From Clostridia bacterium (GTDB taxonomy: Bacteria > Bacillota > Clostridia > Christensenellales > UBA1242), in contig JBNMHO010000001.1 in assembly GCA_050872785.1 (NCBI GenBank), positions 22,937-86,936 of the forward strand: a stretch of 64,000 nt of DNA, given 5' to 3'. This document shows positions 6,178-51,900 of this stretch, piece after piece. The notes under the pieces were generated by a model. That model saw only the letters and a program-made list of their open reading frames with translations, did not search any database and was not told the DNA's origin. Position numbers and translations under genes: made by a program. Numbering within the stretch: position 1 is the stretch's first letter; each line of letters starts with the position of its first letter.

Positions 6178-6199
6178 CTTATAGTAAAATTAGAATATT

Positions 6200-9834: not shown

Positions 9835-11493
9835 TTAGTTTTCCTTTGTTTTCGTAGCAGATTTTGTTCTTGGTTTTGCCACTTTTTTATCAATTATTTC
9901 TTCATTTTTTGCTATATTTTCACTATTTTTTGTGGCACTTTTATCAATATCTGCATCATTTTTCACAGCATTTTTAGTAGATTTTTTCACCACTTTTGTT
10001 CCACTATCTGCTGCTTTTTCTCCCGCATTTTTTGTCACTTTTGCTGGTGGATTTTTAGCAGTTTTTGGGCTATTTTCTGTTTCATTTTTTATAGTCGCAG
10101 CCTCGTTTTCGGCATTTACTGTTTCAGCCTTTTCAGCGATTGCTGCTTTCTTTTTGGTTGTTTTCTTGGCTGGTTTTGCGGCCGACTTTTCGTCAGATTT
10201 TTCGTCAGGTTTTGCTTCTGCCACCTCAATCACTTGAGGAGTTATGCCGCTGTCTTGCTCAGCCTGTTTTCGCTGGGCTTCTAGTTCTTGAAGTTCCATA
10301 AGATACTTCATTTTGTTTTCTTTGAATTCAATATTTCCCATTACAACAACGCTGATAAGTGCAGTGACTGGAGGCGCGAGGAACATTCCCAAAATGCCGA
10401 ACATTGCTCCACCGATAATAACAGAAGCGGTGACAACGAATGGGCTGATTTTGAGTTTGTTACCCATGATGATTGGGAACAAAATGTTGAACTCAATAAC
10501 TGTTATGGCAAGGGTTACAATGAGCATATAAATTGTGGCGGACATGGAGTCGAAAACCAAAGTTATGAGCATTGCTGGCACACAGCCAATGTAGATACCA
10601 AAGTATGGAATGAAGTTGAAAAGTCCGATTATGAGGGCAAGTTCCCAAGTGAAGCTTAAGCCCAAGATTGAATATCCAATTCCTAGTGGAACAAACAAAA
10701 GCACAAACTGGATAAGTTGGCAAATTGCGTAACTATACAAAATTTTGCTTGAGTTGTGAGCCATAACACAGATTTTGTCGGCACGTTCTTTTTTGAAGTT
10801 TGCATACAAAAATCTTCTTGAAAATCTGCCTATTTTCTCTTTTTCTTGCAAAATCATAACTGCAATTAAAATGCCGATGATAAAACTGAAAATGCCAGAG
10901 ATAACATTGACTGAAAGTGCAAGCAGACTGTCAATATACAACACTGTTGTTCTGAGAGAATCAAAAAGTGAGTTGAGTGTGTTTTTGATTGATGCTTGGT
11001 CAACATCTGCGCCGAACCAATTTTGGATAAGGGTGCAAATTTCGTTGACTACCCTATTGACCATTTGTTCCCAACCGTCACCATTTCCGGTTGTAAGTTG
11101 TCTAACAATTTCCACAATTTTTGGAATAAGGATAGAAAATACTAAAACAAAAATTCCAATAATTATAAGAATAACAACAACGATTGAAATAAATCTCTTT
11201 ATTGCGAATTTATGCGGATTGTTTTTTAGCCAATTTTTGAGGAGTTTGTTCTCTATAAAGTCAACCAATTTGGAAAACAAAAATGCTACAACAATGCCAA
11301 TAAGCAATGATGTGCAGCCTGTAAGAAGTCCTTTTAAGACGTTTGACAAATATGGACTTATAACAGTTCCAAGTGCAATGGCACAAAGCATTGCCCAAAA
11401 TAAGGTCGTAAAAAGCCTTATTGGTTTTCTTTTGTTCCCGTCTGGTTCAAATTCAAATTTATCTTTCTTTTCCATGAGTTTATTATAACTCAA
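9835..11493 (-). CDS. AI-2E family (PerM/UPF0118) transporter with a Lys-rich C-terminal tail of about 150 aa (552 aa as called)
   Basis: It has a multi-TM core typical of AI-2E permeases (FIPYFGIYIGCVPAMLITL, GGAMFGILGMFLAPPV). The tail reads AEAKPDEKSDEKSAAKPAKKTTKKK...KVAKPRTKSATKTKEN. The start is uncertain: the track uses the TTG at 11493, and an in-frame ATG lies at 11475. Confidence 0.8.
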   Translation of the reverse strand: MSYNKLMEKKDKFEFEPDGNKRKPIRLFTTLFWAMLCAIALGTVISPYLSNVLKGLLTGCTSLLIGIVVAFLFSKLVDFIENKLLKNWLKNNPHKFAIKRFISIVVVILIIIGIFVLVFSILIPKIVEIVRQLTTGNGDGWEQMVNRVVNEICTLIQNWFGADVDQASIKNTLNSLFDSLRTTVLYIDSLLALSVNVISGIFSFIIGILIAVMILQEKEKIGRFSRRFLYANFKKERADKICVMAHNSSKILYSYAICQLIQFVLLFVPLGIGYSILGLSFTWELALIIGLFNFIPYFGIYIGCVPAMLITLVFDSMSATIYMLIVTLAITVIEFNILFPIIMGNKLKISPFVVTASVIIGGAMFGILGMFLAPPVTALISVVVMGNIEFKENKMKYLMELQELEAQRKQAEQDSGITPQVIEVAEAKPDEKSDEKSAAKPAKKTTKKKAAIAEKAETVNAENEAATIKNETENSPKTAKNPPAKVTKNAGEKAADSGTKVVKKSTKNAVKNDADIDKSATKNSENIAKNEEIIDKKVAKPRTKSATKTKEN

Positions 11494-37400: not shown

Positions 37401-40400
37401 GTCTTTTTCCGCTTTCCATGGAAGTTGTGTTAAACTGCTTTCAAATTTTGTATTTATTTGTTCCGCAAATTGTGTTTCTGAATAACTTGTGTTGCCAACA
37501 AAATATGTTGACTTTCCTGCTTTATCAATAACTTTTGAAAATGACAATGTGTTGTTTCCAAAGTTCACCCCAGCACCCAAACTTCCCCAAGTTCTTGAAG
37601 ACCCAGACGCATTTACAACACCTTTCCCAAAGATGTTTGCAACATTGTATTCGCCTTCGTTTGACATATATGAGAAGATGAATGAAGCAATGGAACTTGG
37701 TGCCCAAAGATTGACATTTGCTCCGCAAGCGAAGAATTTTGCATGGTCACTGCTTCCCGCAAAGCCGCCCGCAAGACCGTCATTTATTTCGTTGAGATTA
37801 AAGCCCGTTGATGTTTCGTTTGCCACAACGTCATAATTGTCTTGATTTGCAAGCCATGTTGTGCCTTGAGAAACATATTCGTCATGATAACTTGTAACGG
37901 AAAGATATTGTGCATTAACGCCAACAAGTTTTCCCGCAAAGCCACCGACCTCGCCTTTTCCCACAACAAAATTTCTTGAGTGTTCGTCACTTACATAATT
38001 TTCTGCCCCAACGTCATATATGCCAACTGGAATATCAAAAACATTCTCGACAACAACTTCACTAGATTTCAAGAACCCTCTTGCAGCCCCAACAACTCCA
38101 CCAACATAATGATGTCCCAAAACGTGTGAAGAAGTGTAACTGTAACTTAGAGAATAATTGTCGTTTAGGTCAGTTATTTTGCTGTTATATTTTTCATTTG
38201 TAACAGCAAGTCCTGCAATTCCGCCAACAAAGTCGCAGTCTTCAGCACTCACATTCCCTTGCACGCTAAGGTTTGAAATTTTGCCGAAGTTTGTTCCAAC
38301 TGCCCCGCCAACGCCGCTTAAAATTCCGTCACCCGCATTTTCCAAGGAATAATCTCTGTCCATTGCAAAAAGTGCCGAGATATTTGCATAACTTTGTGGG
38401 ATGAAGAATGAAGTATTTTCATCTTCCCCGCCCACGATAAAGTTTTCAAACATTTTTACAATTCGAGAAGGAATATTATTGATGTTTATGTTATTAAGTG
38501 CATTTTCGTTGCCAGAAATTTGAACTGTAATATTTATGTTGCTGTCGTAAGCACTGTCGCCAAAGGACACGCTGTCTGCGTTCCCCCTTGCAAAACTTCC
38601 AACAATTTCGCCAAAGTTAAGTCCAGCAATTCCGCCCACAGACAAAAGTTCTTTGCCCATAGAAATAATTGTCACATCGCCAGTTAAACTTCTTGAAGAA
38701 GATTGCTTTTCTGAAAGTTCAATTTTTCCGAAGTTGACGCCAGCAATTCCGCCAAAAACTGTTTGTTTGTTTGTTCTTAAAATTGCGCCAGAGAAACTTG
38801 CTGTGCACTCCAAAATTTCGCCAAAGTTAATGCCCGCAATTCCGCCAAATGTAATTTCATTTGCAATGTTTGGTTGAGCAAAGACAAATTTAATATCAAT
38901 GTCACTCACCTTGCCATGCAATGTTTCAAAAAGTCCGAATGTTTTTGAGCAAATTTGAGAAGGGAGATATACATTTTCTATTGAATAATATTCATAGTGT
39001 GTTGTGGCAGAAGTCTTGTCTTGAACTTCATATCTGCCCGAAAGTTCGCCACCAAAGCCATAGGCATAATATATTTGATCTGCTCTGTAAGCTGTTTGCA
39101 AAACGTATTTGTCAAGGTTGTTTTTGATGTAATAAACGCCATTTGCAAATTGTTCTTCGGTTATATTTACTTCAAAATATCCGCCGATTGGTGAGAAAGT
39201 CCTTGAACTGTCAAAGCGAATGTTGTTTGTTAAAACATATCTCTTTGTTGGGTTTTGTGAAATGTTCAAAAGGTCTTGAACACTTGACACACTGTATGGC
39301 ACATCTTCGCCATTTTCAACATCAAGTTGAATGACCAAAGCATTTTCCCAAATGTTTAGCAAACTTGAATAATCAACAACTTTTGCATAATATTTTCTGC
39401 CTTCTGTATATTCGTTTGCAAGTTCATATACGCCTGCATTTTGGACATAGAACACGCCCAAAGTAAAGTCCTCTTTTGAAAGTTCAATTTCCCTCATTTC
39501 GCCAGAGAAAATTTCATATTGTGCTTTTGAATAAATTTTGTCTTGTGGCAAAACAACAATCAAAATTCTTCCCGCAAGTCCTGTTGGAGAAATTGTCAAT
39601 GTTGCGTGCATATTAGTTTTGTTTTGAATGGAAGCACTTGCAACACCTCTTGCCGCCACCACATACATTGTTTTCCCGCCAATAGTCACAACTGAAACAT
39701 TTTGTGTGACTAAAGTTTTGTTGTATGCTTTTTCATTTGCAATTTCAAGAGGAATATTTATATCGCCATCAATATCCATATCTCTAAGACGCAAGGTTGT
39801 TTGCCCGTCTGCATAAATGTCTGACACTTGCTCGTGTTTTAAAACGGAGATATTTTTTCTTGCAAAGTGACTTTGTCTAAATTCTACAATCTTAACTTCA
39901 ATTTGAATTGTTGAGATATTTTTTGTGTTATCTTGAAGTTCAAACCAATATTTTCCACCAAAAACTCCTTCAAAAAGAAGTTTTAAAACGCTATTATCGC
40001 CCGAGGTTTTGGTCATTGTGCCATTTGTCACTTCATAAACGCTATCAATGTTTCCGTCAATTCTTATTGTTATATATGATTTTTCTTCAAAAGTCTTTGT
40101 TGGCGTTCTGCCCGAAGTTTTGTTAACTTTAACATCAAATCCAAAAACATTTTCTGGTGGGTTTGTTGGATCAAAGGTTATACCCGATTCAAGTTTTTGT
40201 TCATAAGCCACGCTTTGTGGGTCAAAAACTTCAATGCGTGAGAGATTTATATCAATTTCTTCAACTGGAACATAAGAAGACAATGTAAAAGTCCACTCTA
40301 AGGTTGTCCCGTCAAGATTTTCTAGTTTAAACTGAACGACATAAGTTTTTCCGTTTGAAAGGTCGCTTGTAAACATAAAGGCATTTGCTTTGCAATTAAG

Positions 40401-42800
40401 TTCAAAGTAGTCGTCAGAGATTTTGCTTGAGCCAGTTGTTCTGCCGTCATGATAAACTGTATAAGGGGTTTTGATTTGCACGTCTTTGCCGCTTGTTATG
40501 TCAAAAACAGTGTAGGTCATGTCATATCTTGTTGCGTCATATGGTCTTGTGGTCAAAAGGAAATTGACTTGTTCTTTTGCTTTGACTTTTGCATAAATAT
40601 TTCTTGTGCCAATGGTGTAGTCGCCAATGCTGCTGTTTGAAGAAATATCCACAATTTCTGCGTCCATACTGACAACTGGATAATACACATTTACTTCAAG
40701 CGAGTAAGTTTGTCTTAAATTTGACGAACCAAGAGAGATTGCAACATTTTTGCCAACGCTTTGTGGGTCAAGAATAATTTTGCCGCCCTCAACTTTTGCC
40801 AAAACGACATTATCTCTAAGCGAAGAAACATAAACATTGCTTAATGTTGCGTCAAGTGGGAAAACATTGAGTGTTAAGATTGCTATGTAATCTTTTGACA
40901 AGTCAAGGTCCAGTGAAGCCTTTGCGTTTTCAAAGATTACGTTTTGCCTGTCGTAAATAATGTAGTCCCCCGTTGTTTCGTCAATTTCTCTGCTTCTTAA
41001 AACAAGGTCATAGCCCGTTATTTCGCTTATGCCTTGAACAAGCGAAAGTTTTACGACACATTCTGCGCTAGATTGTTCTTCGCAAGACACAACTTGCATA
41101 AACACGTCATCACCAATAAACGCTTCGCCCGCTTCTTTTATCTTAAAGTAGAAATTTGTCCCAGCAAGGAATCTATGTCCCTCAAAGCCCGATTGAAGCA
41201 AGTTGCCCTCTGCGTCCATTGAGATTTGGAACATATTTAGCACTTCATCTTCAGAAAGTTTTGAAATGGTGGAACTTTCCGCTTGACGTTTATAGAATTT
41301 AATTTGAAATGCCGTTCTGTTGCTTAAAACATTTAGTGGTTCACCAACTGTAAGAGAAATTTTAACACCAAGTGAAGCGTCAAAGTTTGTCATGAGTTCG
41401 GTGCCATAGCAGTTATTTTCAACAAAGTTTCCTTCAATGTTGTTGTTTTGCAAAATGTTGCCATTTGCTGCGTAGTTATTTACAACAGTATAACATTTTG
41501 TTCTGAGAGTTGCAGAGGTTGCAAATTCTTCGTTTGCATAGTCCACATATTCACAACGGAAAAGCATGTCATATGTGCCTTGTGGATAGTTTGCCGAGCC
41601 TTCGGTTGACTTAACTTTTGAAGGAACAAGCCTTATGTAGCAAAGTGCATAAGTCGAGTGAGAGATATTTCCTTCTGTTGTAATTTCGCCGTCAGCGTTG
41701 AAATATCTTATAGGCAGACTGTTTTGTCCAAAGGTCAAGCCATAGTTTTCATAATTTGGTTGAACGCTCACAGTGAATGGGCAAAGTGAGTCCTCAACGC
41801 TAAAAATATTAAGTTTTTTGCCATTTGTGTCAACTCGCAAAACAAAATCTTTGTGAGTTATGGCAATGTTTGTTATAAAATTTATAGTGGATAGAATGTT
41901 ATCGCTATCCCCAACTTTCGAGCCAAGCCCGTTTGATGAGGCTTCGTCAAAAGTATAGATTTCAAAGTTAGATATTTGTGGCAAAAATTCAATCTGTTGA
42001 AGTTGCACCAAGTCATCGCCAAGCGGATTTGAATAAGTTGCCCTTACATAAATTTCACCATTCTCTTGCAAGTCATAATCTTCAAGAAGCGTCAAAACGC
42101 CTGAATTTAAAGATATATTTTTGGCTGCAAGTTGAATAGAAGAATATGGAATAAATCTGTCAAGCAATGTTTCGCCTTCACCAGACAAAACGCCAAGTTC
42201 AAAAGCGACATTTCTCATGCCAAAACTCAAGTCGTTTTCAAGACCGTCTGCTAAGTTTGTTGTTGTGCCACTTTTATAGGAAAGTGCAATTTTGCTTTCC
42301 TTAAATCTGAGTGCAGTAGGCACTTGTGCAACCGAAATATTAACACTTCGTTGCTTGTTCCCTTCAGCACTTAAAACTGTCAAAACAGTTGAGCCCTCTT
42401 GATTTGGAGTGACGGAAAATCTTATACCGCCATCAATATATTGTTTTTTGCCAACTGTCAAAATTGGATTTGAAAGACTGACACCGATGTCGCTGTTGAA
42501 GTCATCTGGAGTGCCTGTGAATGTTGCGTCAATGTAAGCCGAGCCTTGAGCGCTTCCGTAAATGTATAATGTGTAAGACCCGTCCAAATTTTCGTCAACC
42601 ACAGAGTTGTCACTCGCATTTGTCCAACGCTTTGTGCCGTCTTCCAAAGTTCTGGAGGAAAAAGAAGTGAAGCAAAAACTTAGGGACATTCTCAAATCCC
42701 CATATCTTTCCTTGCAACCGAAAATTACAAGCGAAGACACTATCAGCAAAAAAATCATTATCTTGCTAAAAATCTTTTTCATTTCTTCTTCCTCTTTCAA
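25401..42800 (-). CDS. Giant predicted surface lipoprotein (5,799 aa from the TTG; 5,793 aa from the more likely ATG at 42782). It has Ig-like arrays plus six cap+GLUG-type repeat modules.
   Basis: It is a single uninterrupted 17.4-kb ORF. From the ATG at 42782 (RBS AGAGGAAG) the N-terminus reads MKKIFSKIMIFLLIVSSLVIFGC, a signal peptide plus lipobox-like IFGC. GG[ILV][VA]G repeats recur throughout (YAGGLVGQATNSTFIGCINYAEV...VYVGGLVGQMISGEI). Cap motifs of the form ..L..L...NSG...DIDLSGK.W.PIG....F.G.F.G.G..I recur as well. Confidence 0.85.
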   Translation of the reverse strand: MKEEEEMKKIFSKIMIFLLIVSSLVIFGCKERYGDLRMSLSFCFTSFSSRTLEDGTKRWTNASDNSVVDENLDGSYTLYIYGSAQGSAYIDATFTGTPDDFNSDIGVSLSNPILTVGKKQYIDGGIRFSVTPNQEGSTVLTVLSAEGNKQRSVNISVAQVPTALRFKESKIALSYKSGTTTNLADGLENDLSFGMRNVAFELGVLSGEGETLLDRFIPYSSIQLAAKNISLNSGVLTLLEDYDLQENGEIYVRATYSNPLGDDLVQLQQIEFLPQISNFEIYTFDEASSNGLGSKVGDSDNILSTINFITNIAITHKDFVLRVDTNGKKLNIFSVEDSLCPFTVSVQPNYENYGLTFGQNSLPIRYFNADGEITTEGNISHSTYALCYIRLVPSKVKSTEGSANYPQGTYDMLFRCEYVDYANEEFATSATLRTKCYTVVNNYAANGNILQNNNIEGNFVENNCYGTELMTNFDASLGVKISLTVGEPLNVLSNRTAFQIKFYKRQAESSTISKLSEDEVLNMFQISMDAEGNLLQSGFEGHRFLAGTNFYFKIKEAGEAFIGDDVFMQVVSCEEQSSAECVVKLSLVQGISEITGYDLVLRSREIDETTGDYIIYDRQNVIFENAKASLDLDLSKDYIAILTLNVFPLDATLSNVYVSSLRDNVVLAKVEGGKIILDPQSVGKNVAISLGSSNLRQTYSLEVNVYYPVVSMDAEIVDISSNSSIGDYTIGTRNIYAKVKAKEQVNFLLTTRPYDATRYDMTYTVFDITSGKDVQIKTPYTVYHDGRTTGSSKISDDYFELNCKANAFMFTSDLSNGKTYVVQFKLENLDGTTLEWTFTLSSYVPVEEIDINLSRIEVFDPQSVAYEQKLESGITFDPTNPPENVFGFDVKVNKTSGRTPTKTFEEKSYITIRIDGNIDSVYEVTNGTMTKTSGDNSVLKLLFEGVFGGKYWFELQDNTKNISTIQIEVKIVEFRQSHFARKNISVLKHEQVSDIYADGQTTLRLRDMDIDGDINIPLEIANEKAYNKTLVTQNVSVVTIGGKTMYVVAARGVASASIQNKTNMHATLTISPTGLAGRILIVVLPQDKIYSKAQYEIFSGEMREIELSKEDFTLGVFYVQNAGVYELANEYTEGRKYYAKVVDYSSLLNIWENALVIQLDVENGEDVPYSVSSVQDLLNISQNPTKRYVLTNNIRFDSSRTFSPIGGYFEVNITEEQFANGVYYIKNNLDKYVLQTAYRADQIYYAYGFGGELSGRYEVQDKTSATTHYEYYSIENVYLPSQICSKTFGLFETLHGKVSDIDIKFVFAQPNIANEITFGGIAGINFGEILECTASFSGAILRTNKQTVFGGIAGVNFGKIELSEKQSSSRSLTGDVTIISMGKELLSVGGIAGLNFGEIVGSFARGNADSVSFGDSAYDSNINITVQISGNENALNNININNIPSRIVKMFENFIVGGEDENTSFFIPQSYANISALFAMDRDYSLENAGDGILSGVGGAVGTNFGKISNLSVQGNVSAEDCDFVGGIAGLAVTNEKYNSKITDLNDNYSLSYSYTSSHVLGHHYVGGVVGAARGFLKSSEVVVENVFDIPVGIYDVGAENYVSDEHSRNFVVGKGEVGGFAGKLVGVNAQYLSVTSYHDEYVSQGTTWLANQDNYDVVANETSTGFNLNEINDGLAGGFAGSSDHAKFFACGANVNLWAPSSIASFIFSYMSNEGEYNVANIFGKGVVNASGSSRTWGSLGAGVNFGNNTLSFSKVIDKAGKSTYFVGNTSYSETQFAEQINTKFESSLTQLPWKAEKDTSGNVVGLPMLYISYDVKVGETTVTKSEPLFVLGPVTVNVVTRDNLSSDEGWKYVKLDDKTLMLFFATDEQNSVSSSILTTLNTTKLLELLDITVSPSGAKANKLIVQSSSDLLEVSGENIIVKSIGKEGSETVTLTISSMLSSQNSTYNAKVQIILCYGLSDVNIYANTSFTAPLSENLGIDLLLSETQTVYANPEFVVEVLGEEVNLRAMDNVGLRFEVASDDINPIIENLNGTATSIGNIFTIGSKQWSSVVSNGKIEKYYVNIDATFASFIPLLAIPDGAKLNIKCVPYIYQVVDGERKNFLLEEHSTNFYLSITHGATSIALSNNTQPNFVMNQLQTLSFTIGMATDSVDDKIILDNLLGLSADLGINVGEYQYEFVDEVGKVEIVGPTETRGKTGLRKISQSFTVWFKDKLAGIKQDKNYVFKFHSSINASVGVSVNVKIIGENEVKSVYTNVYADYDDFPQKSSGGYIYSGLADSPAVLGVEVYPYVTNYSNVRLSYTSSTGDLLFMSPITLDLKNEHGKQFVDNASVAVIGADGKSLTVHKSVGQDTFLSNDNGVYSYARSYFFKLFTDSTVTEGTQFVIKIEIINEQGTVILTKEETVYTLRKPGITFSFDKSLLKDDNDTLYYLPINTKNELSVETINYSDNIKWSLSAVDERGNAYAKFSEIKEALEPTKENGKYYVQVLKYGEIFNTDLVGKTVTLRGEITNNKQTYSYEVKFVVTLFTVKNISVQNAENNSLKVKVATTTPLKLNVSAYYDDSVNAENSWYDDWYQNIGTKAGEREKDSLYKNLTNAGYEVKQYFVDYLNDFADSVAKVTTNNQGTISGVFKSEDGSQLVSGNKYLEETFGVEKFKDYFALYGLRANRTFNIIFDSQISYSAKNTLDSKSAGVPNVCDYLTESYDKIKQFTQTLDVMFVYATELRNAIPVSTADEFLSMQEGKDYRLVNDIVLENYTPLSTKIGSFDGNNKVIFIKSFSYNSSSTGSINLGLFEKIESDVEVSGEKKQIVIQNTTVYYTPNVTEEIFSNGDEITKILEPSLESLRISLPNASSVTFGGIASSNAGVITNANVLGGVKIEINSSDVVSGGTATSLVGGLVGTNEKTGYITNSSVGAKLFRSKAKQGEEKTYDGFDIYCYGKVGGFVGTNSGKIVASYFESGSIEHNSKEEGVGGFVQTNNGEILECYVQGRRSENDKDIRNTGSGIVSRAGIVGGFVYSNNGTISDCYSNIWLSSSGAIAGFVYVDSASSVISRSYSISYKKAGDNNTTAYPFAGPKTLLSTEVCINGVLNDCFFLNDRTKNDKWENTNFYTEGSSDPAKTPANKKAVELSTANFATHTYFTNYDLSLIYNSDGQYANDDKYSYVDGYTWVIIEGKPVLASTLVRTISQRDYLGKKKNYTGYTQIFALQSTSDWKSAKRDNDPSITDYTSSSSGKLLFSKQDNGDTVDFIYPAVETANGNFESLVITYQVVKDGGKTTYVNPVAEYGEDKRVLDIQEGSINDENPKDTNFRANDTITVTFDYENNFISNITYYTLDENNITYYYKGDVSGISFASGNQTNPVTIYDRDSLVYALTNTVSSDDNLDKYFRIICDIDLDGEFLSTSKANFTGVLQGNHMTIDNLSMSYNRWQADQVDKEAFGMFAKITADEKKDTIISNLKLGIVQIVSNVHPYVGALAGIVTGTSVKTDKKVLFNNISIAAADGGYAPVQGRNVVGGLAGYIGKNVIIKDITTDVSVISTFDASGDASEAVRLYLKENSNLSSCSYVGGVVGVFDATSVVDKATKKNYNASNVTVLSGNAFLGGVVGTAFGLLGTDTIANYVNVQVESNDTSFVKAQFYGGGIVGENRGILLSSSARNVDENDSTVSVGKSTLAQYDYFFNAAGTQTVAIGGLVGLNNGGLISNCIGAIDVRSSRTTIVGGAVGRQLAGGIENVIVSGSVMGDKIIGGLVGTFNDKEMIASPESSFSERVMMKDDNMHLALTGYNLAEGSQVICRISNCVAENNWLYEDYDKYVRKIDAITKVAVGGFVGLISTIDNTDENGRTYTWKDKIVFDGQSTYVAAISNGNSKRYLKAAYACETFDYAKEVSENEYTILCNIQGQQSVFPAEQQELYVSTQSSDISYTIKRIPFTTYSDKSSEGDEYKNIIYQIGQVGDKDFSQDSEFYDDIKILEISSSREDYRKKGGSFESGIWYHSNSTDKPVDYTWFAEHFGVVYERYEYYYASDKTIVTGIRKIVDYNNMGSEDKMVVAFGNTYDINFGADNYYTVSYKSMPESSKREIVNSETGKTEEEYPDTTKSKTTFCYIARPTISNFTFDRTFEYKSNNEVKNDIALYGGDESTGAIKKGVNSFESVGLLTDQSTFVLNGLKLFEIKDAGLTLWTEVQENSEYRLSDEMLGEWKGVDLPDGGKIVDITIHVAQAEVDKTWYVSKVILTYEYKGVVVEDNSSKATFLKQSQNPDNPLETTYSLISSAKKSAFKSFDSGYWIFANDFYSGVIPFESKYPQNIEYAETYVWEDFRTTGETGLITEIKTAEDLALFAYLVNSGNDYANQEVQLSADIDLSGKYWIPIGKDANHSFKGKFNGQGRTIKYISVDENSFANSEETKVEYAGLFGYLSGATISSLTLLGGETKGNCAGGLAGVAENSTFSGIANRNNVIGDSYAGGLVGQATNSTFIGCINYAEVKSSNNYNSQNVYVGGLVGQMISGEIKNAEGVETANNGTIQAQSTHNNNFTEHKISLYAGGIVGCAENVKISCDLKNYGNINITTNATNIWAGGLFGKLNTESCAGMFNKGKVSVVNSNRNTTDERSKMYVGGNVGEAITSMLQMSNEEDVTVVCDLVTRLDSYVGGIAGLLSGNLSESYNAKNISFTSKGGDAAYVAGLVGVMSCAEGSNVIAVSDCYNSGKVTTTCGGVGYIAGIVGLCEGETNHVAIKNTLSIGQVSTQSGEGTSFTGAITNFAQNTSLIYRPEKYIVDGVQKVLTFANFFLRGTAVMDGQTQDGLGGELPANYEEEKFAKGRISTTLKEESTYNPEGGKAIWNFGNGVDDATWEWKYATWYPTLANNSPNTIWTDSVEDMVQVGGDYVIDTPEQLANLALLSNSGTLDTKGKTFRLRNAIDLSNKLWIPIGTEEFPFEGTFEGGGYSVYNMTVDGTAVVLSGIKDLKLGGLFGVVRNSKIANLGVISPIVKNVNNAAGVVAKANNTLIQNVYTEIGEAKSCGIVGDLVAGGIVCNLENSLDTQSAKLGLHTSYNNVSVEANAKLTERTQCVGGLVANLKNSSVVNCYNGTNGLISIGSPSKPSETVMVVGSQENGELVNVFNICTNGGKELTATPALFEIVDGEMKKVDGEGVTPVFDNLTSSTSDGKKSTIWAKEYSLNPQGSKGELYPSLRGVGLEWKNTECDSLLSFSTQVDGYKSRVRAAADANDIMFAEEVLGAQELSSKDSSINQIYLISTPQELAWLSLAVNSGMRSAHCEFILTANIDLSGRFFTPIGQSEQTAFCGVFNFNGHTISGLTIDNLSYNYAGLFGWTSNAYIINGYVKDAFVKVESSTSTTNMFVGTVVGYANNTTIKNISVSTAVLAKNVGKVYVGGVAGYVSGTIQYKMENILSRPSTKTLAAGENYIDLSDYNSRIYEEDSTSGASKLKDISINIGGISLSERVFAGGIVGFMSNYNSEATLAGMSYCTNESNVVAMSVGSQPANVYGGGVAGYLANQMAIEACQNSGAIKTSSTLFDAVGGIVGYMFYGTMRNCYSTGYVESCLNSSIKGETSSGSVFSYIGGIVGISIGGTITHTISQSSTYQDVLTGKNIAVGGIIGYSRDKDNFSGDVSVMFDSAGNFGSAQNGIGLSDPAIDKNATVYSSDFTKFSINTADQTLFQPAYWSGSSSAIHLKSQKAYIALTSVFAANISLVEKDVSRSPLVYQEQGNTFRGLLADIDGNYSLEVAKDSEMEAITLTILKLDGTREVITQKTDFGTSESVTVEITNYVKDAVCIFVTVVKK

Positions 42801-42901: not shown

Positions 42902-42949
42902 CAAAATGACTCCTCAAGCGGGCGAGTCACCCGCTCAAGGTCATTTTTT
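42902..42949 (-). terminator. GC-rich intercistronic stem-loop between the two giant genes (weak terminator, attenuator or RNA-stabilising hairpin)
   Basis: The outer arms are AAAATGAC (42903-42910) and GTCATTTT (42940-42947). The inner arms are GCGGG and CCCGC. The minus-strand RNA gains G-U pairs, giving an inner stem of about 11 bp. Only 4 U follow on the minus strand, against 6 on the plus strand. Confidence 0.45.
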
Positions 42950-42960
42950 AAGCGAAGAAA

Positions 42961-45900
42961 TTAAGTTTCTTGTTTAAAAGTAAACTTTTTGATCTCTTGG
43001 TCTATTTTTTCGCTATCCCATGATGTCCCAGTATCGCCCTTACGTTTGTAGGAGTAAAGACTTTGAAGAGTGTAGGCTGATTGAGTTGTTTGTGTTATAT
43101 ACTTATTATCTCCATCGCCTTTATCTCTTGCGTTTCTAACTTTCTCCTCAACTGAACCGTCTGTTGTTGAACCGCCAACATAAGGCAATCCCTCTCCAGT
43201 ATCACACTGCATGTTGTAATAACCTGAAACGACGGGTTCGCTAATGCTGTAACTATACCATTCTGGGCCATTGGCTTCACTTCGTGTCAGATTTCCACTA
43301 AGGCTAGCATTTGCTTTTTTCAGCATTTCTTTATACCACCACGAATCTTCCTCTTTAATTTCACTAACCATTCTTTCTGGCTCTGACGCATTTGTATTTA
43401 GGGTATCATTTCCCTTCTCTGTAGAATACTTTCCATACGGAGTTGCTGCAGCTGTATATTTATTAACTGTTTCCGACCAAGTCCACTCCAGTTTATAATA
43501 AATAATCACATAACGTTCTTTAAGCTCAGAAGACTCTCCTTCTCTTCCAAGCCAATTTATAGAAACACCTGGTTCTTCCCCTTCAATCTTCTTAACTTCT
43601 GGCTTAAAGGTGTCGCTTTCGCCACTTCCTTTTGCAATAATGACACCGTCTGAGTGTTTTGCATGTCCGACATATTGACCACGGCGTTCGTAGATGATAT
43701 CTTTATAGACTTCATCCTTGTCATTGCCCTCTTCATAAGTTTTGTCATTCACTTTTTCAGCATTTTGCTTGTAGTAAGCATAGCCGTTTATGTCGGTTGT
43801 GCTGCTGCTGTTTTCGTCAATATAGGCTGAAGTTGCTTTTCCTATCAAGCCACCTATTGCACCTTTGTAAATTTCATCAAGTGCAGATTGAATAGCACTC
43901 ACATTATCACCCGAAATAGTTGAAGAAATGTTATTAGTTTCCCAAGTTGCCTTTTCTTTTGAAGGATTGTTGCCAGTGTTTGTTGCTGTGCCGCTTGAGG
44001 TGCCACCTGTTTCGCTTGAAGATGAATCACTTGTAGTTGCATTTATGTCATATTGAGCGTTGATTGCTGCAGTGTTTTTTGAACCAACAATTTCATTTTT
44101 GCTGGCATCAGGAGTTGCAGCATAACCTACAAGACCGCCAACATAAATTTCTTTGCCTAGCCCCGTAAGTTCGCCACTATTTTCTGAATTGACAATCGCA
44201 CCGCCTTTCATTGTTCCAACCAAACCGCCAAAGAATACCGGATTTGTTTTGTTTAAAACTTCCAACTGAGCACTGTTCTTGACATCTATAACGGCACCAC
44301 CTTCATTCACTGCCACAATTCCGCCAACAGAAAGACCAGTCTTTGTAAGTGTAATTCCTTTCCCTTCAGTTGAAATTTGGCTTTCACATTGTCCAATGGT
44401 TCCTTTGTTTATGCCAGCGATACCACCAAAGTTATAGTTAATTTTCTCTTCGTTATATGCTTCATCAAAGTTCATTGCAATTATGTTAAACACGTATGCA
44501 CCACTTTCGACCAACCCTACAACGGCGCCAAATGAGTCATGAATTTCTGGTTTGCTTTGTTCTGTTTTGCCATCTGCAGTTCTTTTTGCATAGGTCAAAA
44601 TTTTGGTTTTAACTTTTGCTTTTTCTGTATCGCTTGCCGAACCAAGTTTAGCGCCACTTTCAACCATGCCCGCAAATCCACCGAAATATTCAGCATTTAC
44701 GTCACCAGAACTTTCCATGTCAACACTGAGTGAGAATTCACAACCATTGAGTTTAACTTGTGCATTTTGACCAACGGCACCTACAATAATGCCTGCTGCA
44801 ACTGTTGCTTTCATTTTAAGATGTGAAGAAATAGTCATTCCGCTGTCTGATCCAAATTCAACTGTCTTTTTACCGTTTTCACCAACGTAACCTATAATTC
44901 CACCAACATATTCACCTTGAAGTGTTGCTCCCTCAACTTGGGAAGGTAATTTTGCTGTTGACAAAGTTAGGTCGATTGTGTCAAATATTCCCTCATCTAC
45001 GCGTCCAAAACGACCGCCCACATAACATGCCCCTGATATTTTTTCTAAGCCAAATGTCCCAGTTGGTTCCCACGATGCATTTGCTGAAAAATACCCAGCA
45101 AGACCACCAGCATATTCACCACCTTCTACAACGTTTGCTTGGAAGTTGCCACTCTTAACATCAGATGTTACGCCGACGATTGCGCCAATAGCACCGCCAA
45201 GATACGTTTCCGTATTTTTAAAGGAATTACTATTATTATTCTTTACTGCCGTAACCTTTGAGCCGTCAACAGTCTTAACATTGTTGATAACACCTCTGTT
45301 CATCACACCAACATATGCACCTGCAAAGCCTTTGCTTGTTAGTCTGACGTTTCCACTTGTTGGGGCGTTATCTGCGTTATCTTCAGTTCCGATTTGTGGG
45401 GCATTTTTAACATCATTATCATACACAATGCCAAATTGTCCGCCAGTTTCACCGTCTTTCGCTGCACGGGTGTAACCTTTGTCTGTGCCGCTACTATCTC
45501 TATCTTTTCCAAGGAAACCTACAAGTCCGCCGACGTTTACGCCCGAGATGTCTGGGGCTGTGCCACCTACAAGTTTTCCGCCTGTCATCTTTCCGACCAA
45601 GCCGCCTGCTGCAACTTGATGTGCTTGTTTTATCATGCCGTCAAGTGAAGTAACATCTGTGTCATAGCCATTGTTGTAAATCTTGTAATTTCCTCCGGCT
45701 ACAACTGTATCTTCTTCAGAACTACCGACCTTAACTTTTTCAGCCTCATTATAGGAAGTCCCGCCGTTTGCAAATGAGCAACCGTTGATACTTCCGCCAG
45801 CAAGCCATGCAACTGCACCGCCAACGATTTTCTCGCCGTAGATTTCGGTTTGATAAGTGCCACTTACATTGAATTCGCCGTCATAAGACTCAACAATAGT

Positions 45901-48900
45901 AACTGCACCTTGAGTTGCTGCACTGAGTGAGCCGCTTAGCATGATGCCTGCATAAGCACCAGCCCCCATAATGTCCTTGCCGCCTTTGCCACGGACTATC
46001 AATCCACCGGTGCCTTGAACTTCGCCTTTTATTGGCTTAATTTGTCTAATAAGTGCTTTGTTAATTGTAACGCCGCCGTCTATTTTGCCAGCAAGTCCGC
46101 CACCATAAGTGGAATTTGCTATTGTTCCACCAACAATAAATGGATCTGTGTCTGAATCTTTGGTTGCTTGACCAATCGTGCCGCCTTTGGCCACACCTAC
46201 AAGTCCGCCAACCGCTTCTGCTTGTGACACTGTTGTGTCAACATACACGTTTGTTGCAATTACACTGGTATCCTCAAGACTTCCAACAGCACCGCCAGCA
46301 ACTGCTCCGCTGACAACATTGTCTGCGGTTGCGTCACCAACAAGTTGTGTGTCAACAACTTCAAAGGTTGATTCAACACTGAACTTAACTGATCTTGGAA
46401 CGAAGACATCTCCTTCTTCGTATTCGCCAGTTGCATTCCCGTTGTCATCTTTCTTTTCGACTTGACCTTTCTCCATTACACCAAATTCAACATCGTAAAC
46501 TGGATCTTTTGAAGTGACTACATCGTAAGATTTTGTTAGGACATAATATGTGCCATTTGAATCAGAAGCCGTGCCGACACCGAAATTTCCGTTTGAAGAA
46601 TAACTGCTTAATGCTGTAGCAAGTTTGTAAACAAACGCCTTGCTTGTGTGAACGACCTTATTTTCTACTGCGGGGTTTTCTCCACCAACATTAACTTTAT
46701 GTGATCCATTCACCCATTCGTTAATATTAGCATTAACCTTCTCAAACAACGCTGAATCGCCACGAAGTTTTTTAGCATCTTGGAGTTTATACTCACCAAG
46801 ATCCACGCCACTCCCCTCATAACCGTGATAAGTCCAGACTGATGAAGATGTTTCTGCAATTTGTAGCACGTAGCAATTTGAAATTTGTGAATTGCCTACC
46901 ATTCTACCAACAATGCCACCAACAACAGAATCCTCTTTTGGAATGACTTGTGCTTGAGAAACAACATTTTTCAAAATCGCATTGTTAAGTTCACCAATAA
47001 CACCGCCCGCTGCTCCACCTTTGCCTGCAGTAACTTTTACGTTTTTGCCATTTGTGCCACTGCCAAAGATGAAGTTGAGTGACAAGGTTCTCTTATCTGT
47101 GTCTGTTATCGAACTATCAAATTCCACACAACCGATATATCCGCCTGTTGCAATCATACCGTTTTGAATTGATTGGCTTCTGACGTCAACATTTACTCTA
47201 GAGTAAATCTTCGTCACTGTTTTGTCGCCTACTTCAAGATTTGCTTCTACATCTTTAATAGGACTTGTAAGATAACCGATTGCACCGCCGACATAGGCAG
47301 ATTTTAGGACTTCATATTCAACTGTTTTGCCAAGAAGATTGTAACTTCTTGTAAAGCCGCCCACGTTGACGCAATTTGCAATAACAACACTCTTAACATT
47401 TGTGTTGGTTCTTACGCCAGTTATGCCACCAATGTTGCCGCCCCCATAGACACCAACTGCACCACCAGCATAACCGTTTGTTGTTACCACTTCTTCACCT
47501 GAGGCTGGTTCTGAAATTGTTGGTTCTGAACTTCCACTTTCACCGCCAGTTGAGCCACCACTTTCGCCACCAGAGGTTTCACCGTCACCAACTATTGGGT
47601 TGTTTGAAGTAATAGATTGAGTCGCATTTGTGCCATTAGGCTCATCACATTTTCCAGCGAATATTGTTATTGCTGGGCTGAAGAAACTTGAAGTTTCCTT
47701 TGAGTCCGTTCCGACTGCACAAGAGCCAGAAATCATTGCTCCTTCCTTAACCGTTCCAGCAAGACCACCGGCAAATTGAGGAGAAGAAATTGTAATCTGT
47801 CCACCGAGCAAGAAGCCGACTGGGTTTGTGAGATATGCAAATGCACTGCCCGCCACGGTTGTCATATACATCTGGCTGCCTTTTGACATCTTGCCAATGC
47901 CGCCGCCGGAGTACTTGGCATGAGCAACTTGACCGGAGTTGGTTGCACGGAATATTGCCCAGTTACTTAGGTCTGGAGTTGTGATTGATGGGCTTTCCCA
48001 TTTAGTTTGACCGTCCCATGTTGTCCTGATAGAAATTTCATGCGAGGACAATGCCGCCTCTACGTGATTGTCGTTTACACTTGCACCGTCAGCAAGACCA
48101 ATAAGTCCGCCCGCCGCATAGGAGCCAGAAATTGACCCGTAGTTTGCAACAATACCATAAAGTGGTTCTTTTTCATTAAATGATACAATCTTTGCACATT
48201 TGCTTGCATAACCTATGATACCGCCTGCATTCTCATCGCCCATAACTGTTGCAAAGTTGCTTGAAAGAGTAACTATGATATTGCCTTCGCTTGAAACGGT
48301 TTTTTTCAGATCATGTTCATAACTCACATCTTTGCCATTTACATCTTTTCCATTTGATTTGAACTTTTCTGAACCAAACTGCTGGTTAATAACTGCACCA
48401 ATAATACCACCAGCAGAACCAGATGACGCAATGACACCCGATTGGAATGCACTAAGAATTGTTGTCCATGGTTCACCTGGGTTTACGCCAGCGAGTTTTA
48501 TGCCAAATGACAAGCACAAGGAGAATGTAATTGGTTGACTTGTTCTAACCATTCCCACAATGCCGCCGCTTGCGCCGCCGCCAAGTTTGCCTACGTCTGT
48601 ACCTGTTCCATTTTCTTCTTTAATTGCCGCCAAGTCTTCGTCTGTAAACGCAACAATTGTATCTAAGTAATTAAGTCTTGAGTCAATGGAGTCTGAACTT
48701 GAATAATTGGTTGATTTTGACTTAATTGTATAGTTGTACTGATTTACAACAACACCATTGATATATGTGGAAACTGGAATTCCGCCGTCAAAGCCAACAT
48801 CGCCAAGAAGGCTTAAGATTGGTTTAAAGAGGGCTGAATTGAATGAGAAACCAAGTCCAAATTGACCGCCAAGTTGGATATCAATAAGAGATGTTGGGTC

Positions 48901-51900
48901 ATCATCAATCATAACATCAACTGTAAATCTGTGTGCATATTTCTTTGGACTCTTGTCAAGTGTTTTGTTAATTGGTCCTGTAAATTTTCCGTCAATAAGG
49001 GACTGAATATCATCTCCAATATCTTCAACAGATTGTGAAATTGTAGTGCCACTTAAAGTTGTAAGAGCGCCAGAAACTTTTGGAGCGTAGAGGAATGCTG
49101 CAAGGTTTGGGAAAACATAACCTAGGTTAATCATTCCACTAAGTTTTGCAGTGTCAGTTCCAGCAGGACTTACCCCACTAAGATAACCGATACAGCCGCC
49201 ACTTATTGAACCAATAACAATACTGGTTAGAGATGTGATGACAAACCCATTGCCGTTAAGTGCATATGAAGATAGGTCTGGCATTTCGCCATTATTTGTA
49301 CTCATTTCTGTAACAATTTTAACAAGAAGTTTCATAATTGACTTTGAGTCAACGTTGCTACCAAGACTTTGAATTTTGCCATTATTAAGAACACCAACAA
49401 TGCCACCTGCAATACCAGTTAAAGCCCACACTGTGCCACTGTTGAAAGTAAATCCGCCAGAAAGTTTGCCGTTTTCATCTTTCTTCCAGTTTGCTTCAAT
49501 GCTTCCACCGTCCATAACGCCAACAATGCCGCCTGCAACTCTAAGTCCCATAACAAAACTATAGTTAGTTGCACCTGATATGAAAGTTTTGCCTGAAGAA
49601 CAGTTGATAACACGTCCGTCATTAAGATAGCCAACAATGCCGCCCGCAACATTAGGGAAACTGAGGAGGAATGATGAGCCAAAAATATTTCCAATCATGC
49701 CTGTAAAATCTTTCCAAATGTCACCATTTCCTATTGAAGAGAAAAATGATCCCAAACCGTCAGAGTAGTTTACGCAATCTTCAACTCTTGCTTTTTGCAT
49801 GTAACCAACAATGCCGCCTGCAAAGGACCTTATCATGTAGCCACGAACAAGAGAGTTGCTTGAACAATTTCTGATAACAATGTTATTTGAACTTGTCGTT
49901 GCAACTGCAAGTCCAGCAATACCGCCAGAGAACTCTGTGAACATTCCACCGATTGAATTAACCTTAAATTCTTCACCCGATGTTTGATTAAGTTTAACTT
50001 CACTGTTACATTTTTCAATTATAACATCAGCATTACTTTGACTTATGCCAGTACATTCAATAGCACCAACAATACCACCCGCTGCACCATCTTCAAGGAC
50101 AGTCGAAGCAGTCAAAGCCAATTTCAATAACACGTCTGCACCAGCTTCTTCGCTGAATGAGCCACCAACTGAGAAAGATTCTGCGGACTTATCTTCCTTC
50201 TTCTTTGTAATGATACCTAAAATAATTTTTCTTAGTCCCATCAATGCTTGTCCGCTTTTAGTTTGGTTTTTCTTTCCATCTGCGTCAGTCCCAGTAGCTT
50301 CGCCAAAGTATCCTTTGTCGCCACTTATAATATTTTCGCTTTCACCTCTAATTTTGCCTTCAATATCGCTGTCAACATTCAATGAAACACCTGCCCCTAT
50401 AGCCATACTGGTGTAAAGTTTAAGTTTTCCGTTTGCCTTCACCGCTCCAGTGTTTTTGGCATTGATTATGACAATGACCGAACCACTGCTTGTTGCTTCG
50501 CCAACAATACCACCCGCTCTTGTTGCTGCGGAGATAAATGCTGCGTTTGTGACATTATCTTCTTCTGCATTTCCAATGTTACCTTTGACAATTCTTCCAA
50601 CGATACCACCAGATACTGAGTAGCCGTCAATAACGAATGTAAGGCTTCTCTTAATGTTCAAGGCTTTGTTATCATCCAAAGCATCGTTTATAGTGCCAGT
50701 TGTATCTTGCACATAACTATAGATGATGTCAATCGCTTTTTTGAATGTAAGATTTTCATCAGAAGCAAATTCATTTTTCGCTTTTTTGTAATACTCTTTA
50801 AGTTTTTCCCATGTATCTTTTCTTGTTACGAACTTCTCTTTGCTAGCGTCAAGAGCAACATCTTCTGGAACAATCCATGGGTTCAACAAATCCCAAATAA
50901 TATCTGTTTCTACTTTGGCTTCTTGCAACGCCTTGCAGCTGGCGATTGTGCCGCCGTTCATGGAGCCGACTATGCCGCCTGCGAGAATTGTTTGCGAACT
51001 CTTCATGTCGATGTTGCCTGCGTAGGTGCAGTTTGAGATATTAACGTGTGCGCCGTTTGCTTCGACAACATTTCCGACAATGCCGCCGACCATAATTGAA
51101 TAGTAGCCTGCAAGATATTTGATTTCATAGGAAAGTTTTGCTGAGCCTTGAACTGCTGAATTTCCGTCGCTGTTTACCTTGCCAAACACGCAATTATCAA
51201 CCACGGTGGTGTTTGCAGTTGCTTTTGCAAAGCCTACGATGCCGCCCAAGTTAACTGTGCTTGCAAGAACATCACTCATTGAGATGAGGTTCATGTCTGG
51301 TTTTGCAGCAGAGCCTTGTTTCAAATTTGTCATTTCGCCATATTGGGTCATTCTTGTGTCTTTGAACGCTGGAAGGAATTGTTCGTAGGTTTTATCACTT
51401 GTTGAAACGAAGTTTCTTGAAGCAATTCCGACAACGTTTTCACCTGCTACGACGCAATTTGTAATCGTTCCGCCATACACAGCACCAGCAATGCCGCCTG
51501 CACCATATATGCCATAAACTTTGACGTTGCTATCTTCTTGAATTTCTATGCCTGATAGTTCACATTCCAAAAGTCCCACAACGCCGCCAGAGTATGACCT
51601 TGGTTGAACGACTTGATTTATGCTCATTCCGCCACCGACTGTGACATTTCTTAAAACGCCATTGCCGTTATTTTCTTTACTTTTTTCCTTAAACTCAATG
51701 CTACCACCAGTCATTATGCCAACGATACCGCCAGAGTAACTTGTTGAGTCTGAGGTTTCATCATATGCCCCAACGGACAAATTGCTGTCCTTATTTGAGA
51801 ATATGCCCGATATTTTTCCTTTTTGCATCAAGCCAATGTATCCGCCTGCAAATGCTGGGGTATCGGAGTACATGTGTTTATAGCTGTTATCATTCGTAAG

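What the first reader, a model, noticed from the sequence alone, without database searches (positions are those of the whole stretch)
42964..43800. A distinct Trp/Tyr-rich C-terminal domain of about 280 aa caps the larger giant protein
Seen in sequence: the last GLUG-type motif (AIGGLIGKATSAYIDENSS) is encoded at about 43860-43801 and is preceded by a Ser/Gly/Thr linker. After it the repeat grammar stops. A unique segment follows: ...RGQYVGHAKHSDGVIIAKGSGESDTF...YVIIYYKLEWTWSETVNKYTAAATPYGKY...EEDSWWYKEMLKK...GPEWYSYSISEPVVSGYYNMQCDTGEGLPYVGG...YSYKRKGDTGTSWDSEKIDQEIKKFTFKQET.

Inference: this is a terminal functional head. It could be a ligand-, glycan- or wall-binding domain, a docking domain for the adjacent lipoprotein, or an effector. 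I do not recognise the fold. No small immunity-like ORF follows it, which argues against a polymorphic-toxin tip.
Basis: partly seen in the sequence, partly recalled or inferred. Interest (0 to 1): 0.55.

Follow-up and report, generated by a model that had tools for sequence, protein, structure and literature searches.

The report
Orphan end domain with hypervariable cassette
The last ~280 residues of a >7,000-residue repeat protein from an uncultured Christensenellales bacterium form a real, non-repetitive end domain with no known relatives. Its ~113-residue Trp/Tyr-rich centre differs drastically between two otherwise ~93%-identical strains, which suggests an exposed, swappable specificity tip.

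Summary
ORF A (42961 to beyond 64000, minus strand, at least 7,012 aa) ends in 279 non-repeat residues after its last GLUG-like unit (43860-43801). This stretch has the highest Trp+Tyr density in the protein and resembles nothing else in A or in neighbouring giant lipoprotein B.

No match was found in Pfam, NCBIfam, PHROGs, PDB sequences, phage or plasmid records. The only relatives sit at the same place in two related metagenome loci:
- L001, Christensenella sp. UBA7862, about 93% DNA identity
- L003/P0002, 34-36% protein identity, same A-then-B gene order

New result: the domain has three parts. Two conserved Tyr-rich framework segments (43573-43800 and 42964-43233) bracket a cassette (43234-43572) that blastn does not align between window and L001. 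In the cassette dN is 0.63 and dS 0.92, against 0.035 and 0.19 upstream. It is the only such patch in 20 kb.

Both AlphaFold2 runs failed (pLDDT about 32), so the fold is unknown.

Best reading (about 0.45): an exposed specificity tip whose central cassette is exchanged by recombination. A toxin tip, a DGR target and a wall anchor are disfavoured. Moderately interesting; a new variant of a known kind.

The parts
42961..64000 (-). Giant ORF A (at least 7,012 aa, open at the window edge). It carries GLUG-like GG[ILV]xG repeat units and is the carrier of the C-terminal domain.
   Evidence: It is conserved in L001 with dN/dS 0.18 over 3,229 codons.
43951..44034 (-). Ser/Thr/Gly-rich linker (TSDSSSSETGGTSSGTATNTGNNPSKEK) before the final module.
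43801..43860 (-). Last GLUG-like unit (AIGGLIGKATSAYIDENSS).
   Evidence: The repeat-unit HMM hits it at E 1e-6. It is conserved in P0002 as AVGGLVGIAEGEVVFDKDCSS.
43573..43800 (-). Conserved N-terminal framework segment of the end domain. It is Tyr-rich, with motifs GYAYYKQN and VYKDIIYERRGQYVG.
   Evidence: Measured together with the preceding GLUG-like unit (43573-43860): 83% aa identity to L001, dS 0.19, dN 0.065, and 42% identity to P0002.
43234..43572 (-). Hypervariable cassette of 113 aa. It holds 6 of the domain's 7 Trp and 9 Tyr.
   Evidence: blastn finds no alignment to L001, although the flanks are 92-95% identical. Boundaries are sharp. 35% of columns are identical and 13 are gap columns; dS 0.92, dN 0.63. 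It is the lowest-identity stretch in 3,600 aa. Identity to P0002 is 27%.
42964..43233 (-). Conserved C-terminal framework segment, with motifs VVSGYYNMQCD, LPYVGGSTT, GDGDNKYITQTTQ, LYSYK and FTF.
   Evidence: 83% aa identity to L001, dS 0.19, dN 0.088. 42% identity to P0002.
42912..42940 (-). 13-bp GC-rich hairpin 21 nt after the stop codon. It looks like a terminator but has a weak U tail.
25401..42782 (-). Giant lipoprotein gene B (5,793 aa from ATG 42782). It has a GAGG Shine-Dalgarno sequence and the signal peptide MKKIFSKIMIFLLIVSSLVIFGC. It is the conserved downstream neighbour.
   Evidence: The same gene order is seen in L001 and L003.

Best explanation
The final ~280-300 residues of giant protein A form a lineage-restricted, non-repeat terminal module. 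Two conserved Tyr-rich framework segments hold a ~113-residue Trp/Tyr-rich variable insert. I propose that this is the exposed, specificity-determining tip of a long cell-surface fibre, either a ligand/glycan-binding face or a dominant antigenic or phage-contact face. Alleles of the insert would be swapped between strains by homologous recombination through the conserved flanks, and kept diverse by diversifying or frequency-dependent selection.

Shown: the domain's uniqueness, its retention as the C-terminal cap in a distant orthologue, the mosaic divergence, and the raised dN and dS in the cassette.

Inferred: surface exposure, binding function, and what the ligand or selective agent is.
For: - The repeats stop, and the domain is unique within 12,800 aa of A and B.
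- The same domain ends the orthologous giant gene in L001/L002 and in the distant L003/P0002 (34% identity over the last 800 aa, aligned to the last residues). The B-like lipoprotein gene follows in each.
- Window and L001 are 92.9-94.9% identical in DNA over 20 kb, except window 43234-43568, which blastn does not align.
- Divergence in the cassette: dN 0.63 and dS 0.92, against 0.035 and 0.19 upstream and 0.016 and 0.20 in B.
- At residues that stay identical, codons differ in 29% of cases in the cassette against 11% elsewhere. With boundaries drawn slightly wider the figures were 27% against 11%, Fisher p = 0.004. The cassette therefore has an older ancestry than its flanks, which indicates an imported or long-kept allele.
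- Cassette dN is three times the flanking dS, so relaxed constraint in place cannot explain it.
- Aromatic positions in the cassette are invariant in all three sequences (W103, Y117, Y121, Y122, W126, Y135, W201, Y204). The cassette is therefore a constrained, probably folded element and not a spacer.
- No conserved His or Cys, which fits binding better than catalysis.
- Weak leads to Ig-like or beta-sandwich strands: a titin I-set match at E 0.5 and a 23-column GPxWYSxSI motif shared with a DUF7035-repeat protein.
Against: - No fold is available. AlphaFold2 gave pLDDT 31.7 from the single sequence and 32.6 with P0002 added.
- There is no homology to any known binding domain.
- The domain is very hydrophilic (GRAVY -1.0 against -0.16 for the rest of A), so part of it may be disordered.
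- Only two alleles and one distant orthologue exist. L002 is identical to L001.
- Nei-Gojobori omega in the cassette is 0.69, not above 1. dS there is unreliable because of alignment uncertainty and multiple hits.
- The N-terminus of A lies outside the window. Secretion, and which end is distal, are therefore inferred from the repeat architecture and from B's lipoprotein signal.
Confidence: 0.45

Rival explanations
1. A structural end-cap with no binding role. The domain merely terminates or stabilises the fibre. The central segment is a loosely constrained surface loop region, and the two alleles reflect a single chance recombination event of no functional consequence.
For: - Omega is 0.69, below 1.
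- Only two alleles are known.
- The domain is very hydrophilic.
- AlphaFold2 finds no fold.
- The whole C-terminal ~1,400 aa of A diverges faster than the rest when compared with L003: 39.5% identity against 53.7%.
Against: - Cassette dN (0.63) is three times the flanking dS (0.19), so an imported divergent allele is needed, and such alleles must persist somewhere in the population.
- Eight aromatic positions in the cassette are invariant across three sequences.
- It is the only such patch in 20 kb.
Confidence: 0.25
2. An anchoring or docking module. The C-terminal domain attaches protein A non-covalently to the cell wall or to the neighbouring giant lipoprotein B.
For: - The location is C-terminal and the composition aromatic-rich, as in several Gram-positive wall-binding modules (own knowledge).
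- A-then-B gene order is strictly conserved in three loci.
- The framework segments are conserved.
Against: - There is no LPXTG motif and no hydrophobic segment.
- No SLH, LysM, SH3b, choline-binding, WxL or other Pfam hit appears, even at E up to 10.
- The pI is acidic, 4.7-4.9.
- An anchor is not expected to carry a hypervariable centre.
- The first 3,251 aa of B are 96.7% identical to L001, with no 40-aa window below 85%. No compensating patch exists there.
Confidence: 0.15
3. A polymorphic toxin or effector tip delivered to other cells.
For: - A giant repeat carrier with a variable C-terminal region.
- The region varies between near-identical strains.
Against: - The variable part is internal. 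The last 90 aa are 83% conserved.
- No immunity-sized ORF lies in the spacer between A's stop and B's ATG in the window. In L003 the longer spacer yielded only short ORFs that run through a tandem repeat and an N gap.
- No toxin family was hit.
- No His or Cys is conserved.
Confidence: 0.05
4. Programmed hypervariation, either by a diversity-generating retroelement or by gene conversion from silent cassettes elsewhere in the genome.
For: A variable region close to the C-terminus of a surface protein, with sharp boundaries.
Against: - No second copy of the cassette exists, in DNA or protein, in the 64-kb window, L001 or L003.
- The alleles differ by indels (13 gap columns) and at 65% of columns, not only at adenine-templated positions.
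- L001 and L002 are identical over 6.4 kb.
Confidence: 0.05

Closest known systems
Ligand-binding end regions of giant repetitive bacterial adhesins (RTX adhesins such as MpIBP, LapA, FrhA; own knowledge)
   Same: A very long repetitive extender ends in a short set of non-repeat modules near the C-terminus that determine what the fibre binds.
   Different: No RTX nonapeptide repeats or T1SS-type signal were detected (no Pfam hit). The host is a Clostridia-class bacterium. There is no sequence homology. Function is untested.
Non-repeat binding regions of serine-rich-repeat adhesins (GspB, Hsa, Fap1; own knowledge)
   Same: A unique, strain-variable specificity region is embedded in an otherwise repetitive, conserved surface protein.
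   Different: Those regions lie near the N-terminus and the proteins carry an LPXTG anchor. Here the module is C-terminal, has no LPXTG and shows no homology.
Mosaic distal tips of phage tail fibres and receptor-binding proteins (own knowledge)
   Same: A conserved shaft carries a distal segment that is replaced wholesale by recombination between close relatives.
   Different: No similarity to phage proteins was found. The extreme C-terminal 90 aa are conserved here. The gene is chromosomal and lies next to rpoB/rpoC.
Polymorphic toxin C-termini (CdiA-CT, Rhs-CT and the like; own knowledge)
   Same: A giant carrier whose C-terminal region varies between strains.
   Different: The variable part is internal, there is no immunity gene, and there is no toxin domain or conserved catalytic residue.
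GLUG motif proteins (Pfam PF07581)
   Same: The carrier has GG[ILV]xG units. PF07581 passes its cut-off in B (E 4e-5) and is sub-threshold in A (E 0.07).
   Different: The end domain itself has no GLUG unit.
DUF7035-repeat protein P0001
   Same: It shares a GNLxxxExxGP[DE]WYS[FY]SIS motif with the cassette (E 1e-5).
   Different: Only 23 columns align, with hhalign probability 55%. The window domain does not hit PF23034.

Membership tests
GLUG-motif repeat (PF07581), i.e. continuation of the repeat solenoid | Recurring GG[ILV]xG-type unit detectable by the Pfam model or by a profile of the protein's own units | tested here: not met
   There is no Pfam hit in the last 339 aa. The last motif is at residue 6704. 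The own-unit HMM scores E 0.87 in the last 279 aa, against 1e-6 for the last unit and 1e-21 for residues 6000-6660.
Polymorphic toxin C-terminal domain | Variable region runs to the extreme C-terminus after a conserved demarcation | tested here: not met
   The variable cassette is internal (43234-43572). The last 90 aa are 83% identical to L001.
Polymorphic toxin C-terminal domain | Cognate immunity gene immediately downstream | tested here: not met
   The 178-nt spacer up to B's ATG holds only 25-27-aa ORFs and a hairpin.
Polymorphic toxin C-terminal domain | Recognisable toxin or enzyme domain, or conserved catalytic residues | tested here: not met
   No Pfam or NCBIfam hit. No invariant His or Cys in the three-sequence alignment.
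Diversity-generating retroelement target | Template repeat closely similar to the variable region nearby | tested here: not met
   blastn-short of 43200-43620 against the window finds only matches of 13 nt or less. Only 64 kb could be tested.
Diversity-generating retroelement target | Variation limited to substitutions at adenine-templated sites, without indels | tested here: not met
   13 gap columns, and 65% of columns differ.
Sortase-anchored Gram-positive surface protein | C-terminal LPXTG motif, hydrophobic segment and basic tail | tested here: not met
   No LPx[TSA][GAN] occurs in the last 340 aa, the longest hydrophobic run is GAIGGLIG, and the protein ends in KKFTFKQET.
Non-covalent wall-binding modules (SLH, LysM, SH3b, CW_binding_1, WxL, GW, CWB2) | Match to the family profile | tested here: not met
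   No family is hit at E up to 10 for any of the three homologues.
Ig-like / beta-sandwich domains (I-set, DUF7035) | Domain-length profile match or a confident fold match | tested here: inconclusive
   Titin I-set match at E 0.5 over 44 positions. A 23-column motif match to DUF7035 repeats, hhalign probability 55%. The models are too poor for a fold search.
RTX adhesin C-terminal region | GGxGxD nonapeptide repeats and a T1SS signal | tested here: not met
   There is no HemolysinCabind or other Pfam hit. The sequence has a single GDGDNK and no repeat.

The most novel reading that the evidence does not exclude
A previously undescribed fold family, restricted to a small clade of uncultured gut-type Christensenellales. 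It would act as a modular receptor-binding tip on a >7,000-aa bacterial fibre, in which a conserved two-part scaffold presents an exchangeable ~113-aa aromatic cassette. Strains would swap the cassette by recombination under frequency-dependent selection from phage, host antibody or variable ligands. This would be a bacterial counterpart of phage tail-fibre tip mosaicism.
Probability: 0.3. Interest if true: 0.6.

Novelty: new variant of a known kind. Interest (0 to 1): 0.45.

Why it matters
Giant surface proteins of uncultured gut Clostridia are almost wholly unannotated. Here about 12,800 aa yield only weak GLUG hits. Knowing which few hundred residues carry specificity is what makes such proteins experimentally tractable.

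A short end domain with a strain-specific, recombination-swapped cassette is a concrete target. It can be expressed, tested for binding, and tracked across metagenomes as a strain marker or as a site of host or phage pressure.

The case also shows a practical gap. The large protein searches missed a true homologue that is present in the collection (against 39 and 50). Claims that the C-terminus of a giant, fragmented gene is an orphan therefore need care.

Tried and rejected
- Family and structure-sequence searches of the domain: Pfam, NCBIfam and PHROGs scans, and PDB sequence and profile searches. Nothing was significant.
- Word-indexed search of 5.8 billion proteins, with the domain alone and with the three-sequence profile. 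No hits.
- Exhaustive HMMER search against 1.84 billion representatives. It returned only a 26-residue motif match, P0001. hhalign shows this is not homology over the length of a domain.
- Other collections: viral contigs, phage records and plasmid records gave nothing. The first metagenome scan gave nothing. The second returned only a contig identical to L001.
- AlphaFold2 from the single sequence and with P0002 added. Both were unusable, so no fold search was run.
- DGR or silent-cassette idea. No second copy of the cassette was found.
- Hidden repeat or continuation of the solenoid. Rejected.
- Literature searches for GLUG-type giant proteins. Only general background on giant Clostridia proteins turned up.
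Full report
**What is there**

The finding lies at the 3' end of a minus-strand ORF that runs from the stop codon at 42961-42963 to beyond the window edge. The listed ORF has 7,000 aa from an internal ATG, but the frame stays open to base 63999, so the protein has at least 7,012 aa and its N-terminus is unseen.

A spacer follows the stop codon and contains a 13-bp GC-rich hairpin (42912-42940). It is 160 nt to the listed TTG start of ORF B and 178 nt to B's ATG. ORF B is a second giant gene on the same strand (25401-42782, 5,793 aa). It has a GAGG Shine-Dalgarno sequence, an ATG at 42782 and a lipoprotein-type signal, MKKIFSKIMIFLLIVSSLVIFGC. Further downstream are rpoB, rpoC, fusA, tuf and uvrC, so this is core chromosome.

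**Check of the observation**

- AIGGLIGKATSAYIDENSS is encoded at 43860-43804, after a Ser/Thr/Gly linker.
- The GG[ILV]xG motif occurs 48 times in A, and the last occurrence is at residue 6704.
- I trained a profile on half of the 76 repeat units of A and B.
  - It recovers most held-out units at E about 1e-4 to 1e-7.
  - It scores residues 6000-6660 at E 1e-21.
  - It finds the last unit at E 1e-6.
  - It scores the final 279 residues at E 0.87.
- BLASTP, TBLASTN and a profile of the end domain find nothing similar elsewhere in A, in B or in any frame of the window. The domain has no internal repeat.
- Composition is distinct: W 2.5% against 0.6%, Y 8.2% against 4.4%, E+K 21.5% against 10.9%. 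The W+Y maximum of the entire protein is here.
- Six of the seven Trp lie in the central 113 residues. Tyr enrichment (8-9%) is shared by all homologues, whereas the Trp count is not.

**Relatives**

No family or solved structure matches. Nothing was found in phage, viral or plasmid collections.

Three related loci were found.

- **L001.** A scan of one genome per species found the MAG Christensenella sp. UBA7862 (NCBI lineage Clostridia; Christensenellales).
- **L002.** A metagenome contig that is 100% identical to L001 over 6.4 kb, so it is not independent.
- **L003 / P0002.** A search with the last 800 aa of A found P0002, a 1,353-aa gene call on a 65-kb ENA scaffold. It aligns at 34% identity over all 800 residues, right to the last residues.
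  - In L003 the giant gene is split by a run of N.
  - It is followed by a B-like gene whose N-terminus reads ...SSLVIFGCNERYGDLRMS....
  - Identity to the window is 54% for A residues 2085-5450, 39.5% for A 5585-6999 and 64% for B.

The domain is therefore a conserved C-terminal cap of this giant protein in a small clade, always followed by the giant lipoprotein gene.

One caveat applies to the negative results. Three large protein searches did not return P0002, although it is in the collection and its C-terminal part is even a row of the query alignment A2. Their negative results are therefore weak for the C-termini of long or fragmented proteins.

**The new result: a hypervariable cassette**

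Window and L001 align at 92.9% DNA identity over 10.2 kb of A and at 94.9% over 9.9 kb of B. The exception is window 43234-43568, where blastn finds no alignment.

A codon-level alignment shows sharp boundaries. Nucleotide identity falls from 80-90% to 40-50% around 43590-43575, and recovers around 43250-43236.

In 40-residue windows the cassette is 30-38% identical. That is the lowest value in 3,600 aligned residues of A; the next lowest dips are 55%. The first 3,251 aa of B are 96.7% identical and never fall below 85%.

Nei-Gojobori estimates, window against L001:

| Region | dS | dN | omega |
|---|---|---|---|
| A upstream (43861-53600) | 0.19 | 0.035 | 0.18 |
| N-terminal framework incl. 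last GLUG unit (43573-43860) | 0.19 | 0.065 | 0.35 |
| Cassette (43234-43572) | 0.92 | 0.63 | 0.69 |
| C-terminal framework (42964-43233) | 0.19 | 0.088 | 0.47 |
| B, first 3,257 codons | 0.20 | 0.016 | 0.08 |

The cassette alignment also contains 13 gap columns.

At positions where the amino acid is unchanged, the codon differs in 29% of cases in the cassette against 11% elsewhere. With boundaries drawn slightly wider the figures are 27% against 11%, Fisher p = 0.004.

Two conclusions follow.

- Cassette dN is three times the flanking dS, so loss of constraint in place cannot account for it.
- Synonymous divergence is also raised, so the cassette has an older ancestry than its flanks. It is an allele brought in, or kept, by recombination.

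Against the distant L003 the same three-part pattern holds: 42% identity in each framework segment and 27% in the cassette. Eight aromatic positions within the cassette are invariant in all three sequences. The cassette is therefore constrained and probably folded. GC content of the cassette (38%) matches the gene (40%), which points to a donor from the same lineage.

**What it is not**

- **Continuation of the repeats:** rejected.
- **Polymorphic toxin tip:**
  - The variable part is internal and the last 90 residues are conserved.
  - No immunity-sized ORF follows.
  - No toxin family is hit.
  - No His or Cys is invariant.
- **DGR target or silent-cassette system, as far as 64 kb plus two loci allow:** there is no second copy of the cassette, and the alleles differ by indels.
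- **Sortase substrate:** no LPXTG and no hydrophobic tail.
- **Known wall-binding module:** no profile hit, and the pI is acidic at 4.7-4.9.

**Fold**

AlphaFold2 failed both with the single sequence and with the two-row alignment that the tool rules permitted (pLDDT 31.7 and 32.6). I ran no fold search, because matches to such models would be meaningless.

Two weak leads point to Ig-like or beta-sandwich strands in the cassette. One is a titin I-set match, 'G.eP..itW', at E 0.5. The other is a GP[DE]WYS[FY]SIS motif shared with a DUF7035-repeat protein (E 1e-5, but only 23 columns and hhalign probability 55%). These are leads, not evidence.

The domain is also unusually hydrophilic (GRAVY -1.0), so partial disorder cannot be excluded.

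**Most likely mechanism**

I propose an exposed terminal module in which two conserved Tyr-rich segments form a scaffold. The aromatic cassette between them forms the specificity or antigenic surface. Cassette alleles move between strains by homologous recombination through the conserved flanks and are kept diverse by selection. Confidence is about 0.45.

Rivals:
- an inert structural cap with a tolerant loop region (0.25)
- an anchor or docking module for the wall or for lipoprotein B (0.15)
- a toxin or effector (0.05)
- programmed variation (0.05)

The docking rival is weakened, for the cassette, by the lack of any co-varying patch in the N-terminal 56% of B. It is not excluded for the conserved framework segments, nor for the untested C-terminal part of B.

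**Comparison with known systems**

Functionally it most resembles three things known from the literature (own knowledge): the non-repeat ligand-binding end regions of giant adhesins, the strain-variable binding regions of serine-rich-repeat adhesins, and the recombination-swapped tips of phage tail fibres. It is not a member of any of these families by any test available here.

A 2023 preprint on giant genes notes 10,000-30,000-aa repeat proteins in gut Clostridia with presumed surface-binding roles, but it does not describe this family (10.1101/2023.11.21.568195).

**Verdict**

The domain is an orphan limited to a narrow clade. The added finding of a recombination-swapped hypervariable cassette makes it a reasonable experimental target. 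It is a new variant of a known kind. Interest is moderate at 0.45, limited by the missing fold, by having only two alleles, and by the lack of any functional evidence.

Noticed in passing
window 63964-64000: ORF A has no in-frame stop before the window edge. The listed 7,000-aa ORF only starts at an internal ATG, so the true protein is longer and its N-terminus (signal or anchor) is unseen.
   Followed up: partly
window 25401-64000: Two giant genes (at least 7,012 and 5,793 aa), same strand, fill about 60% of the window directly upstream of rpoB-rpoC. Gene order is conserved in L001 and L003. Pfam finds only weak GLUG hits across about 12,800 aa.
   Followed up: partly
window about 51820-51970 and 45310-45490 (A residues ~3999-4048 and ~6159-6218): Two secondary dips in identity to L001 (55% in 40-aa windows, against about 93% overall). 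They are much milder than the cassette.
   Followed up: no
window 42912-42940: A 13-bp, 8-GC hairpin flanked by an A-run and a short U-run lies 21 nt after A's stop. It looks like a terminator between the two giant genes, so A and B may be separately transcribed or attenuated.
   Followed up: partly
L003 14155-14300 and L001 10906-10960: The A-B spacer varies between loci. L003 has a short tandem repeat and an N gap there. In L001, relative to the window, the blastn segments overlap, which indicates a small duplication or indel.
   Followed up: no
protein collections (against 39, 50): P0002 is in the collection and its C-terminal part is 36% identical to the end domain. It was missed by both word-indexed searches and by the exhaustive representative search. 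It surfaced only when upstream repeat sequence was included in the query.
   Followed up: partly
L004/L005 (Logan SRR30769985, SRR30769984): The exact UvrC of the window occurs on short contigs of two sequencing runs, so the window's strain is present in those samples. They could supply reads for an allele survey.
   Followed up: no
window 9835-11493: A 552-aa AI-2E/YtvI-like membrane protein lies next to tuf. NCBIfam matches were below the curated cut-offs.
   Followed up: no
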